Assembly: GCF_018350175.1 (NCBI RefSeq)
Contig: NC_058369.1
Coordinates: forward strand, 152,396,001-152,460,000
Direction: 5' to 3'
Length of the DNA stretch: 64,000 nucleotides
Origin: Felis catus
Lineage: Eukaryota
Shown: positions 14,821 to 18,990 of the stretch, in pieces
Position numbering within the stretch: the first letter of the stretch is position 1
How the letters are laid out: each line of letters begins with the position of its first letter
Notes under the pieces: generated by a model
What the model saw: only the letters and a program-made list of their open reading frames with translations
Databases searched by the model: none
What the model was told of the DNA's origin: nothing
Program-made: the position numbers and the translations under genes

Positions 14821-15039
14821 TTGTATGGTAAGTGGGAGTGGAATCCATTTCTTGCTTTCAAAACGTTAATTAGAAAACATCAACTCGAAAAGTAAGGATC
14901 CGGGAAATTTCGTAAAATAAAATACACCCTCGCTTTACAGGAGTGAACCACCAAGTTCAAGTGCCTGTGAACAAGGCAGTTATTATTAAAGTCAGCATTC
15001 AACTGAGAGCCGGGTCTAAGGTGTGCCTTCTAAACTTTG

Positions 15040-16180
15040 GACTTGACCATTTCTAGGGCCGGTCCTGGGCGGGCGGGCGGGCAGGACAAGGAGCGTCGCT
15101 GCTCGGGGAGAGATTCTAAAGGTCCCCCGGGCTGGGAGCAGCAGCCCCGCCCATACCCACAAGAGCCAGCGGAGAACCCGCAGCTGGCCAGCCCAGGTGC
15201 CAGCGGAGAAAGGCCGGGAAAACGAGCCCGGCTTGCTCGGGCGCCTCCCTTCCTCTCACTTCTCTCGCAGCCACGGACACACCTCCCAAGGCAGGTTTCA
15301 GGAACGCGAAGCCCCGGCACGGTCCCCAGCTGGAAGCGGGCACACTGTCCGGACGCACGCACCCCACGGCCAAAGCCGCTCTCCTCCCACTCACCCACGG
15401 CCCCCGGACTCCCAGACCCGGCTCCCCCCGGATGCGCCCCAGCTGGCGTCCTCCGGAGCAAATCCGTTTTGGAGGCAGCCCCCCCTCCCCCAGCCAAGAC
15501 GCCGGGCAGCCTCTCCCCGCTCCCCGCGCCGGCGGCGGCCGGCGCCCGCGCAAGCGGGCGACGGTCAAGGCGCGCGGCCCGGGGCTGCCGCGGAGAACCG
15601 CGCGGCTCCCCACTTACTTGGAGTTGCGAACGCCGCACGCGCCCGGGCTGCCTTTGTTGAACGGGGCGAGGCTGTGCGCTCGGTCCGGTGCCGGTGGCCG
15701 CTGCCCGCGCGCGGCTGCTGCGTGCGCCCTCCCTCCCGGACGGTGACGCCCCCGGGGGTCCCGCTTCCCTGTCCCCGCTTCGGCGGGTCCTCCGCTCTGC
15801 GGCTCCCTCGGCGGGGTTTGGGACCGGCGGGCGGGGAAGCCGGTCCTGCCTCTGCCTGCGCTGCGCCCTGCCGGGGAGGGAACGGAAGGCAAATGGAGAA
15901 GGGGAGGGATGAGCGGAGCGGGCAGGGCGAGGACGCAGGCTGGGCGAGGGAGGGAGCGCGCCTTTCCCTCGCGAGCTGATTGGGAAGCTCATTAAAGGCA
16001 GGAGTCTCCGGGGCCGCGCTCTCCCCGGCACGGGTTGGAGCCGGGAGATGAAACGGTGTTTTGTTTTTAGCAGGTGTTTTGTTTTTGTTTTAGCACCACC
16101 TCTCTTTTCCAAACTTTATGCCTGACCTGTGTTTTCGGTGGGCGCACACCCCGTAGCAAGGGTCGCTTCGATGGACAGCT
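15040..16180 (-). promoter_or_regulatory. CpG island / promoter of a minus-strand gene
   Basis: About 1.1 kb of very GC-rich, CpG-dense sequence in an otherwise CpG-depleted window; multiple GGGCGG boxes; CCAATCAG on the minus strand near 15976-15983; CTCGCGAG palindrome at 15968-15975. Confidence 0.92.
15618..15930 (-). other. Probable non-coding first exon (5' boundary approximate)
   Basis: Consensus donor GCAACTCCAA|GTAAGTG at 15618/15617 inside the CpG island, about 360 bp downstream of the CCAAT box; no ATG seen on the minus strand in this span. Confidence 0.7.
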
Positions 16181-16206
16181 GATAGCATATGAGGATACCA
16201 TTTTGG
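16105..16206 (+). repeat. Source copy of a 102-bp local duplication
   Basis: 95/102 identical to 17929-18030 by manual alignment, no indels; retains 5 CpGs. Confidence 0.97.
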
Positions 16207-17648
16207 CCCCAGGCTTTTTGTTTGTTTTGCTTTTTAATGATATTCGGGATGAAAAAGCCCAATCTTCAAAAGGACACTCTCATTCCTCCCCACGCTCAAA
16301 ACCCCTCCCCTGCACCCAGCTCCGGTTTCTTCAGCTGTCAGTCCTGTCCCACCTGCGCGTCACAAATGTGAGCAGTCCTTTCTTGCGCTTGTCACAAAGA
16401 GTGACAGATGTCTGAAGGTTCCCAATTAAATTTCACTTTCCTTTAGGGGGCTTTTCCTTTTTGGGCTTCCTTGGTGCCTTTAGTGACCTATTTAGTGACA
16501 TGTCTTTGACACCCAAGAGTTTTGGGGGCTTAAGGTAGCTCAAACTCTGGGCTTTGTAAAACTCAGAGGCTGCGCTGGGTGGCTTTCTAGATTTCCGTAA
16601 AGTTTCATTGAGAAACGGTGCTAAGGTAATACAGCTGGGGTTGTTTGAATAACACATAGATGGATATTTTTGATACAGATGTGACAAAAGTATTGCATTA
16701 CTAATTCCGGAGTGTAAAACAAATTTCCCCCAACATTTCAAGAAGGAACTTTTGAGATTTTCTGGTACTCATCGGTTCTTGCCTCCCGTTACTTCCTTGA
16801 AGCTCATCGTTTGATGGCATCCTCCCCGAATGGTGGCAAAATATACTTCCATCTTCCCCAGTTCCCAGGTTGCATCCCTTCAATCTGATAAATATCTACT
16901 AAGCGACTCGTATAACTCTTAATGTGGACATTTGCTTAGAACCATACCAAACCCCTAAATTAGAAGCATTGTTTTGTGGCAAGTAGTTCTTAGAAACTTT
17001 GGGCTCTTACGTTGACTGCTACCTGGACAGACGTCCCATGAAGGCGCCGGCTAGGGACAAAGAGGTATCTCTGCAAGTAGACCTTTTAATCAGTTATTTA
17101 TTATTTTTTTCAAAAGGGGAGGCATCAGAGATTCACATGTAAGCCTCCTGTTTATCCCCGTAACCAAACTCTTCATACACAGGCCACGCACCATCCTAAA
17201 GCAAAATAAATTAATAAGGAGCTGTCTTCCCTCCACATTGCAGATTTCATGTTGCCCCTCTGCCTTTTAGGATTCCCTTTTCCCAATGATGTAGCAGTGT
17301 TGGTTTTAGTGTGGTTTCACCTGCGTGAACCGTGAAGGAATGCCCATTGTTATTTATTAGGTTTATTTTTTGCCAAGGCTCTTTCCTGAAAGAGACTTCT
17401 CCACATTCGCTGTCACTCCGGCAGGTAGAGTTTCTGGGCCTTTAAACAAGGGGTCATCCCTCTTCCATTTCTTCCTAAACTTCATCTAAACATTTGCAAA
17501 TGTAACATGTTGCTGCCAGTTAGGACAGTGCTTCTCTGCAGGGTTGATACAGTGAACATGACATGCCCATGATTTGGATACAATTACATGAATTGAATCC
17601 AAAATGCAACACTTTATTCAGCTAGGAATATATGAAGATTATTTACAT

Positions 17649-17853
17649 CAGTGGTTCTCAACCAGGAACAGTGTTGCCCTCCAGGTGACATCTGACAATG
17701 TCTGGAGACATTTTTGGTTGTCACAGCTTGGGAGAGGGGGTTGCAACAGGTGTCTAGGAGGCAGAGGCCATTACCTTGTGGTGCACAGAACAGCCCCCAC
17801 GGCAGAGAATTATTTGTCCCACGATGTTAATAACGCCGAGATTAAGAAACCCT
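17649..17853 (+). mobile_element. MER20 (hAT-Charlie) non-autonomous DNA transposon
   Basis: CAGTGGTTCTCAACC...GACAATGTCTGGAGACATTTTTGGTTGTCACA...AGAATTAT...GCCGAGATTAAGAAACCCT matches the MER20 consensus as I recall it. Confidence 0.9.
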
Positions 17854-17910
17854 AACTAAATTACTAACCATCATATTTTGTTTCATATAATGGAATATTA
17901 TATGAAGTTC

Positions 17911-18059
17911 AAGTTCAAGGAGAAGATATTTTCCAAACTTTATGCCTGACCTGTGTTTTAGGTGGGTGCACACCCCATAGCAAGGACCACTTCAATGGAC
18001 AGCTGATAGCATATGAGGATACCATTTTGGTATCCAAAGTTCAAGGAGAAGATATTTTC
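17911..18059 (+). repeat. Inserted copy of the 102-bp segment, flanked by 23-bp direct repeats
   Basis: AAGTTCAAGGAGAAGATATTTTC at 17911-17933 and 18037-18059; copy at 17929-18030; 6-bp filler TATCCA. Confidence 0.95.
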
Positions 18060-18134
18060 AAGTGCTCTCTCAAGTGGTCACTCCACATCCAACCTACAGC
18101 ATCAGTTGGGTCTGCTGATTCAAGATTTCAAGTC

Positions 18135-18990
18135 ATTCTATTCATTTCGTCAACATTCTTTGAAGACTCAAGGGTTGTTTTGGGGGTTTTTTCAGTTTTT
18201 TTTAAATGTTTATTTATTTTTGAGAGAGAAACAGAGTACGAGCAGGGGAGGGGCAGAGAGAGAGAGGGAGACACAGAATCCGAAGCAGGCTCCAGGCTCT
18301 GAGCTGTCAGCATAGAGCCCGATGCCGGGCTCACACTCACAAACTGTGAGACCATGACCTGAGCTGAAGTTGGATGCTCAACCGACTGAGCCACCCGGGT
18401 GCCCCTTGAAGACTCAAGTTTTTGAGTGAACAGAGCTATGAACAAGAACAGATAAACATTCCTACTATGCTTTAGTTTACATTTTTGTTTACATAAATAA
18501 ACAATTAATTACATTTTAAAAAGATGTGAGAAGTGCCGTGGGAAAAAAAAAAATAAGACAATGAAGGAAGATAAAATTGCCAATTTGGGAGAGGAAAGGC
18601 TCCCTGGGGTGAAAACTGAGCAAAGACTTAAAAGAACTCAGGGAGTTGGCCAAATAAATATTTGGGATGAGAATTACCAGGCAAAGGGACCGGTCAGTGC
18701 AAAGGCCCTGGGGTCTTTGCCCTTGCCCCGTGTGTTAGAGGACCAGGAAGGAGGCCACTGTGGAAGGAACCTGGTGGGTGAAGATAGGCATCCAGGCCAG
18801 GCAAGTAATGGGTCAGATCATGCACGACTTGGTCTAACGTAAGAAATTCTACTTTTGCTCTCAGCGAGGTGGGAAGCCATTGAGAGTGATAAAATCTGAT
18901 TGATTTATGATGGTCTGTGGTGAAAAGACCACAGGTGGGTAAGGAAGAAAGCAGAAACCCCAGAGAGGAGGCTACTGCGGTAATCCACTG
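18135..18990 (-). mobile_element. LINE-2 3' fragment, interrupted by a Can-SINE
   Basis: (ATTC)n-like tail ATTCTATTCATTTCGTCAACA; L2-typical CCAGGCAAAGGGACCGGTCAGTGCAAAGGCCCTG, GGGAAGCCATTG and GAGGCTACTGCGGTAATCCA. Confidence 0.75.
18173..18405 (-). mobile_element. Can-SINE
   Basis: Reverse-complement SINE body; TSD TTGAAGACTCAAG at 18160-18172 and 18406-18418. Confidence 0.95.

What the first reader, a model, noticed from the sequence alone, without database searches (positions are those of the whole stretch)
16105..18059. 102-bp promoter-flank segment copied 1.8 kb away between 23-bp target duplications (non-transposon templated insertion)
Seen: 16105-16206 recurs in the same orientation at 17929-18030 (95/102 identical, no indels). 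The copy is bracketed by a perfect 23-bp direct repeat AAGTTCAAGGAGAAGATATTTTC (17911-17933, 18037-18059). The last 5 bases of the left repeat (TTTTC) are also the first 5 of the source, which is junction microhomology, and a 6-bp filler TATCCA sits at the right junction. There is no poly-A tail, TIR or recognisable repeat family. Established: microhomology-primed copying from a nearby template with filler bases is characteristic of polymerase-theta end joining or synthesis-dependent strand annealing. Inference: a staggered germline break was patched using the open promoter region as template, possibly duplicating cis-regulatory sequence.
Basis: partly seen in the sequence, partly recalled or inferred. 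Interest (0 to 1): 0.7.

Follow-up and report, generated by a model that had tools for sequence, protein, structure and literature searches.

The report
Repair scar upstream of pleiotrophin
In a cat-family genome, about 100 bases from just upstream of the pleiotrophin gene sit copied 1.8 kb further upstream between two identical 23-base repeats, most likely the scar of an old chromosome break patched from nearby DNA, a known kind of accident with no sign of function.

Summary
In detail: 16105-16206 recurs at 17929-18030 (95/102) between perfect 23-bp repeats, and the genome search found only these two copies. The neighbouring gene is pleiotrophin (PTN, minus strand); the source lies 120-220 bp upstream of its CCAAT box. 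Two features were missed. The 'filler' is templated: TATCC is the reverse complement of GGATA in the copy's own end, a fold-back hairpin (z -4.7). The primer end sits on an L1-endonuclease-type site (TT|GAAA), so 'non-transposon' is not established, although 23 bp exceeds every local SINE target duplication (0 of 175 above 21). All five source CpGs are lost in the copy, which supports source-to-copy direction and an old event. It fits the repair-mediated duplications of Pace et al. 2009 (class microhomology+TSD+filler). I found 8 such local two-copy pairs in 1.86 Mb, and this scan noted similar events elsewhere in this genome. Best model: staggered break, 5-nt priming on local DNA, 97 nt copied, snap-back, rejoining (0.55). 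Rivals: L1 ORF2p wrote it (0.25); fork template switching (0.17). No empty-site or RNA data could be obtained. No evidence of a regulatory effect. New member of a known kind; interest 0.2.

The parts
16105..16206 (+). Source (donor) segment at the upstream edge of the PTN CpG island; keeps 5 CpGs
17911..17933 (+). Left copy of the 23-bp duplicated target; its last 5 bases (17929-17933, TTTTC) are the inferred primer and match 16105-16109
17934..18030 (+). 97 nt copied from 16110-16206; 7 substitutions, 5 of them at the five source CpGs and 2 adjacent to one
18017..18035 (+). Junction hairpin: arms 18017-18024 and 18028-18035, 3-nt loop. 18031-18035 (TATCC) is the reverse complement of 18017-18021, inferred snap-back synthesis from a 3-bp stem
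   Evidence: z -4.68, 0 of 200 shuffles; chance 1e-4 to 1.6e-3
18036..18036 (+). Single extra A: untemplated, or the first base of a second 2-bp snap-back that would also give AA microhomology with the target (inferred, weak)
18037..18059 (+). Right copy of the 23-bp duplicated target
18056..18061 (-). L1-endonuclease-type site TT|GAAA (minus-strand reading) exactly at the primer-side end of the duplication
17905..17916 (+). Tandem hexamer repeat (2 copies) at the left boundary; the second copy starts the 23-mer; origin unresolved without an empty allele
15001..16000 (-). CpG island holding the inferred non-coding first exon of pleiotrophin (splice donor GTAAGT at 15617, CCAAT at 15983); coding exons lie 76-101 kb downstream on the minus strand

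Best explanation
This is a 97-base copy of PTN upstream DNA between two identical 23-base repeats, and it is likely a germline repair scar: a staggered break likely left a free 3' end that paired by 5 bases with DNA 1.8 kb away, a host polymerase likely copied 97 bases, and the released strand likely folded back on itself before the ends were rejoined. Steps: (1) two nicks 23 nt apart leave a + strand 3' end reading TTTTC (inferred; the first nick is about as likely as not to be an L1-endonuclease cut); (2) this end pairs with the complement of 16105-16109 (microhomology shown, pairing inferred); (3) SDSA/MMBIR-type synthesis copies 16110-16206 (copy shown, pathway inferred); (4) the end forms a CCA/TGG stem with a 3-nt loop and adds TATCC, a Pol-theta-like step (hairpin shown, enzyme inferred); (5) one A is added, the ends are joined and gap filling doubles the 23 nt (inferred); (6) the copy, outside the CpG island, became methylated and lost its CpGs (loss shown, cause inferred). 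It is most likely neutral.
For: Two copies only in the genome. Donor 1.8 kb away, no tail, microhomology + filler + TSD: Pace et al. list 824 human duplications with donors within 5 kb (mean 162 bp, histogram peak about 1.2 kb) and 2 of 39 inspected proximal cases in exactly the class MH+TSD+filler (PMC2671141). Fold-back filler: z -4.68; an 8-bp stem of this kind occurs at 42 of 462,438 positions (3-nt loop) or 750 of 462,438 (loop up to 20). Pol theta extends ssDNA stem-loops from two terminal pairs and makes inverted-repeat insertions (PMC11292364 abstract; PMC7165422 passages). The duplication is longer than normal L1 staggering: 0 of 175 local SINE TSDs exceed 21 bp, median 16; ORF2p TSDs are usually under 20 nt (PMC7617806 passages). 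Such pairs are not rare: 8 distinct two-copy local pairs in 1.864 Mb.
Against: The primer end matches the L1 cut consensus set (TT|GAAA): 51 of 175 SINE sites match that set at the exact position against 0.46% of background positions (2.7% if six offsets are allowed), and TT|GAAA itself is 3 of 175 against 0.066%, which favours an L1 nick by roughly 10- to 60-fold. Pace's TSDs were 4-21 nt, so 23 is outside their range too. Only 1 of the 8 local pairs has a clean long TSD, so this is the minority form. A looser TSD finder called one 24-bp SINE TSD among 56. No empty allele was seen, so the insertion itself is inferred.
Confidence: 0.55

Rival explanations
1. L1 ORF2p made the insertion itself. 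It nicked TTTTC/AA, primed internally on a GAAAA in a local template (an upstream-initiated PTN-sense RNA, or local DNA) instead of a poly-A tail, copied 97 nt, self-primed on the hairpin, added an A and was joined: a tailless retrocopy made in cis with no L1 sequence.
For: L1 cut motif at exactly the primer end and on the right strand, none at the other end. The template strand required is the PTN-sense strand. ORF2p extends 5-nt primers on RNA or DNA, extends hairpins, adds untemplated bases and jumps templates (PMC10830420 passages). Tailless retropseudogenes have 8-35-nt TSDs and internal priming (PMC5322556 passages). Co-insertion of pre-mRNA made near the target was seen once (PMC10191854 section 11). 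The fold-back lies at the 5' junction, where L1 insertions are irregular.
Against: 23 bp is beyond 175 of 175 local SINE TSDs. Published local templates at L1 insertions are typically within 15 bp and accompany L1 sequence (bioRxiv 2024.08.27.596794 passages). The source lies upstream of the CCAAT box, so an RNA template needs an unshown upstream start. No cap-derived extra base at the junction. All 39 proximal cases inspected by Pace lacked tails.
Confidence: 0.25
2. Replication template switching without a staggered break (FoSTeS or serial slippage): the nascent + strand left at 17933, re-primed 1.8 kb back on TTTTC, copied 97 nt, folded back, then resumed 23 nt behind the departure point, which doubles 23 bp.
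For: Same orientation and short distance suit a looped single template; both boundaries of the 23-mer share the context TTC|AAGT and a tandem hexamer sits at the left boundary, hinting at a slip-prone site. [quoted passage not shown]
Against: Gives no reason for the L1-type motif at the departure point; the return junction has at most 1-2 nt of microhomology.
Confidence: 0.17
3. Artefact or repeat: a misassembly, or two members of a dispersed repeat family.
For: No reads were laid on the locus; the genome search skips very common words.
Against: Seven substitutions with a one-way CpG-decay pattern, an ordered junction hairpin and a perfect flanking duplication are not assembly errors; 2 matches in the genome, 1 other match in 1.864 Mb.
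Confidence: 0.03

Closest known systems
Repair-mediated duplications (RDs), Pace, Sen, Batzer and Feschotte 2009, PMC2671141 (read: main text parts 1-3 of 8 and passages)
   Same: Insert over 50 bp, one donor, donor within 5 kb, no poly-A, microhomology + filler + TSD (2 of 39 proximal cases); found also in dog (192).
   Different: TSD 23 vs their 4-21 nt; acceptor not shown to lie in an annotated element; filler resolved as a snap-back copy; L1-type motif at the primer end. In the parts and passages I read they mention transposon endonucleases only as a general source of breaks.
Inverted-repeat templated insertions (TINS) of Pol-theta-mediated end joining (PMC7165422 passages; PMC11292364 abstract and outline)
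   Same: [quoted passage not shown]
   Different: The main 97-nt tract from 1.8 kb away is far longer and more distant than typical TINS (3-30 bp, from within about 30 bp).
Tailless retropseudogenes, Noll et al. 2015, PMC5322556 (passages)
   Same: TSD in the 8-35 range, no tail, L1-like target, priming by complementarity to an internal A-rich site.
   Different: Their sources are mostly small RNAs and mRNAs inserted in trans; here the source is promoter-flank DNA 1.8 kb away and no RNA is shown.
Templated sequence insertion polymorphisms, Onozawa and Aplan 2016, PMC5110952 (abstract and part 1 of 4)
   Same: Class 1 has TSD and an L1-type site; class 2 has microhomology and no tail.
   Different: TSIP donors are distant; class 1 is polyadenylated. 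This case mixes both classes and is local.
Localized non-tandem duplication, same strand, Frith and Khan 2018, PMC5829575 (passages)
   Same: Short segment inserted nearby in its original orientation.
   Different: Descriptive class without junction-level mechanism; TSD not a defining feature in the passages seen.

Membership tests
Repair-mediated duplication (Pace 2009) | Inserted sequence of at least 50 bp found at only one other place | tested here: met
   97-102 bp; 2 places in G000 (lower-bound caveat); 1 other hit in 1.864 Mb
Repair-mediated duplication (Pace 2009) | Donor within 5 kb and more than 50 bp from the acceptor | tested here: met
   1824 bp start to start
Repair-mediated duplication (Pace 2009) | No poly-A/T tail; microhomology, filler, deletion or TSD at breakpoints | tested here: met
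   5-nt microhomology, 6-nt filler, 23-nt TSD, no tail
Repair-mediated duplication (Pace 2009) | Empty orthologous site in an outgroup | not testable with these tools
   No related genomes are held; the one run search listed none
Pol-theta templated insertion (TINS) | At least 5 bp repeated, direct or inverted, from DNA within about 30 bp of the junction | tested here: met
   Holds for the TATCC filler only
Pol-theta templated insertion (TINS) | Whole insertion 3-30 bp from break-proximal DNA | tested here: not met
   97 nt from 1.8 kb away vs PMC7165422
L1 TPRT product / tailless retropseudogene | Endonuclease consensus (TT|AAAA or one transition) at the primer-side end of the TSD | tested here: met
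   TT|GAAA at the exact boundary; background 0.45% exact, 2.7% over six offsets
L1 TPRT product / tailless retropseudogene | TSD length typical of ORF2p (7-20 nt; Noll's screen allowed 8-35) | tested here: inconclusive
   23 nt: outside 175 of 175 local SINE TSDs (max 21), one 24-bp call among 56 with a looser finder, inside Noll's window
L1 TPRT product / tailless retropseudogene | Source is a transcribed RNA of the matching strand | not testable with these tools
   Required strand is PTN-sense; no RNA data could be laid
TSIP class 1 | Poly-A tail downstream of a cryptic signal, distant donor | tested here: not met
   No tail, local donor
Structured RNA gene or dispersed repeat | Rfam match, stable fold or multiple genomic copies | tested here: not met
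   No Rfam hit on the feature; source fold z +0.89 as DNA; 2 copies

The most novel reading that the evidence does not exclude
An L1 protein cut the PTN upstream region and wrote in a copy of promoter-flank sequence from 1.8 kb away (nascent upstream RNA or open DNA) with no L1 sequence and no tail, so a share of the local duplications credited to host repair are L1 footprints, recognisable by a cut motif at the microhomology end plus a TSD. This can be tested on existing catalogues. I did not find it in print with one search ('L1 endonuclease', 'proximal duplication', 'locally templated', 'target site duplication', 'germline', 0 papers with 4 of 5 terms), but its parts are published.
Probability: 0.25. 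Interest if true: 0.45.

Novelty: new member of a known kind. Interest (0 to 1): 0.2.

Why it matters
On its own it matters little: one old scar of a class with hundreds of known members per mammalian genome. Its value is as an unusually legible junction, where 5 of 6 filler bases are explained and both a Pol-theta-like snap-back and an L1-type cut site are visible. That suggests a cheap genome-wide test of whether L1 nicks start the TSD-bearing subset of repair-mediated duplications. It could also serve as a presence/absence marker among carnivores. An effect on pleiotrophin regulation is possible but unsupported.

Tried and rejected
Public runs for an empty allele or RNA: one search (window 16000-18185, library word PACBIO) listed no run and no RNA holder; this is no evidence either way, and no reads were laid. 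Rfam scan: nothing on the feature. Source as a structured RNA or mini-element: its ends are 5-bp inverted repeats, but it folds no better than shuffles (z +0.89) and has two copies only; rejected. First gene guess CNOT4: its RING exon is 1.5 Mb away; rejected in favour of PTN (the other strong Pfam hit, on another contig, reads as midkine, name recalled). PTN promoter literature: one search returned no PTN promoter paper among the 15 listed, so no mapped element can be placed in the source. Search for 'polymerase theta, snap-back, templated insertion, tandem duplication' returned 0. Testing the L1-motif idea on other local pairs failed for lack of cases: only 1 of 8 has a clean long TSD (that script over-extends our TSD to 25 with a mismatch, so its motif column is out of register and one search is the valid check). 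APOBEC-type deamination at insertion was considered: changes fall on both strands and in mixed contexts; rejected. CpG gain in the source by GC-biased conversion was considered: 6 of 7 differences are strong in the source, but 5 of them sit in CpGs, which decay in the copy explains more simply. Supplementary files were not opened; Pace Table S1 and the supplementary figures on local templates in PMC11702581 and the 2024 bioRxiv may bear on the L1 question.

Full report
Observation. 16105-16206 recurs in the same orientation at 17929-18030 with 95 of 102 identities and no gaps, the 23-mer is identical at 17911-17933 and 18037-18059, TTTTC is shared by the end of the left repeat and the start of the source, and TATCCA lies at 18031-18036. 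The own-genome search scored two candidates and returned source and copy only (counts are lower bounds). No Rfam family matches the feature, and the source folds no better than shuffles.

Context. The window is rich in SINE copies that I recognise as carnivore SINEs (name recalled; self-BLAST). A Pfam PTN_MK_N exon lies on the minus strand 78 kb below the CpG island and translates as pleiotrophin (name recalled from the sequence and the family). Four coding exons, including the ATG exon, lie at window coordinates -60.9, -61.9, -64.6 and -85.1 kb, and 15001-16000 is the only CpG island between -130 kb and +64 kb. The island holds a minus-strand GTAAGT donor at 15617 and a CCAAT at 15983. I infer that it is the PTN promoter and non-coding first exon; no RNA confirms this. 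The source is thus about 120-220 bp upstream of the CCAAT box and the copy about 2 kb upstream.

Direction and age. The source has 5 CpGs and the copy 0. Four are lost by deamination-type changes, one by C to A, and the other two substitutions adjoin a CpG. This fits a copy that left the island's edge and became methylated, and agrees with the TSD sitting around the 17.9-kb copy. Calibrating on 108 local SINEs (per-lineage non-CpG divergence 0.008, 0.053 and 0.089 for three classes; CpG loss 9%, 66%, 75%), the joint estimate is 0.026 per lineage (0.011-0.05). At 2.2e-9 per year (the rate used by Pace) that is about 12 Myr (5-23); a rate half as fast doubles it. The event may predate many living cat lineages; this is untested. 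Loss of 5 of 5 CpGs with only 2 other changes and a perfect TSD is more lopsided than the calibration predicts (likelihood-ratio p from below 0.001 to 0.014, depending on assumptions). The test is post hoc and on tiny counts, so I list it as unexplained.

Right junction. The filler is templated. The copy ends in CCA, a 3-nt loop and TGG; the next five bases, TATCC, are the reverse complement of GGATA at 18017-18021. The 8-bp hairpin folds at z -4.68, 0 of 200 shuffles. Such a stem occurs at 42 of 462,438 positions with a 3-nt loop and 750 with loops up to 20. Pol theta extends stem-loops from two terminal pairs (PMC11292364 abstract) and leaves inverted-repeat insertions (PMC7165422 passages). 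L1 ORF2p also extends hairpins and 5-nt primers on RNA or DNA (PMC10830420 passages), so the hairpin does not name the enzyme. The remaining A is untemplated or begins a second 2-bp snap-back that would also supply AA microhomology with the target (weak).

Left junction and the L1 question. The microhomology end is the primer end. Read on the minus strand, the target boundary there is TT|GAAA, one transition from the L1 consensus TT|AAAA; the other end does not match. Among 175 credible SINE TSDs (from 323 5'-complete copies, 238 with a TSD call, in 1.864 Mb), 51 match the consensus set exactly and 78 within two offsets, against 0.46% of background positions; TT|GAAA itself is 3 of 175 against 0.066%. 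Allowing six possible nick positions raises background to 2.7%. This favours an L1 nick by roughly 10- to 60-fold. TSD length points the other way: median 16, maximum 21, none at 22 or more, although a looser finder called one of 24 among 56; ORF2p TSDs are usually below 20 nt (PMC7617806 passages). I weigh these as about even for an L1 first nick and about 1 in 4 for ORF2p as the copying enzyme. The template strand required by TPRT is PTN-sense, but an RNA template would need a start upstream of 16206, which is unshown.

How common. In 1.864 Mb around the window a filtered self-comparison gave 9 rows, 8 distinct two-copy pairs of at least 45 bp and 82% identity within 10 kb (one row is part of another). 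Seven are direct, one inverted. Only this one has a clean long TSD; one other has a 10-bp match inside a purine microsatellite. Some of the eight may be old low-copy repeats. Earlier notes of this scan describe similar events elsewhere in this genome, including 161 bp copied 1.7 kb with an 18-bp TSD (unchecked AI notes, not used as support).

Comparison with what is known. Pace et al. 2009 found 824 human duplications with donors within 5 kb, 192 in dog, and 2 of 39 inspected proximal cases with microhomology, TSD and filler together. This case meets every sequence criterion I could test; the empty orthologous site could not be tested, because no related genome is held and the run search listed none. 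It fails the size and distance limits of a pure Pol-theta insertion and the tail criterion of class 1 TSIPs. It overlaps tailless retropseudogenes in form without a shown RNA. Local templates at L1 insertions are reported, but typically within 15 bp and together with L1 sequence, once from nearby pre-mRNA, and three times from nearby genomic DNA in an experimental system (PMC11702581 passages).

Function. Both copies keep one E-box, one GATA, one nuclear-receptor half-site and one CACACCC motif; window rates are 0.04, 0.18, 0.08 and 0.01 per 100 bp. I chose these motifs after seeing the sequence, so they are not evidence. The copy has lost all CpGs and has a SINE 140 bp to its right. No paper on this promoter region turned up. 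Neutral is the default.

Verdict. Real, well preserved, and a new member of a known kind. Best model: a staggered break patched from local DNA with a snap-back finish (0.55); rivals are ORF2p-written insertion (0.25), fork template switching (0.17) and artefact (0.03). Interest 0.2.

Noticed in passing
window 17929-18030 vs 16105-16206: All 5 CpGs lost in the copy while only 2 other sites differ and the 23-bp TSD is perfect; more lopsided than local SINE calibration predicts (p from below 0.001 to 0.014, post hoc). Could be chance, faster decay of duplicated DNA, or conversion between the copies.
   Followed up: partly
window 17905-17916 and 18057-18063: Both boundaries of the 23-mer share the context TTC|AAGT, and a tandem hexamer lies at the left one. 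Without its first 6 bases the TSD would be 17 bp, the modal L1 length.
   Followed up: partly
window 16109-16113 and 16202-16206: The source begins and ends with 5-bp inverted repeats (CCAAA / TTTGG); no stable overall fold; probably chance.
   Followed up: partly
window 17644-17736: Old repeat fragment just left of the acceptor (3 other hits in 1.864 Mb); looks like MER20 (recalled, not tested).
   Followed up: no
window 18196-18405: Middle-aged SINE (80% to the young query) on the minus strand with a 13-bp TSD, 140 bp right of the insertion.
   Followed up: no
G000:C2, window-relative -726245/-724077, -624015/-621437, -241240/-240493, -107351/-106606, 719965/721147, 989249/989666: Other local two-copy duplications of 46-135 bp, 0.3-2.6 kb apart, without TSD: candidate repair-mediated duplications.
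   Followed up: partly
G000:C2, window-relative -50083 to -50012 and -44144 to -44071 (PTN intron 1): 74-bp inverted pair, 86% identical, 5.9 kb apart; not retained by the filter.
   Followed up: no
G000:C27:57139329-57139481: Third, weaker PTN_MK_N match (E 1e-9) besides PTN and midkine; possibly a retrocopy.
   Followed up: no
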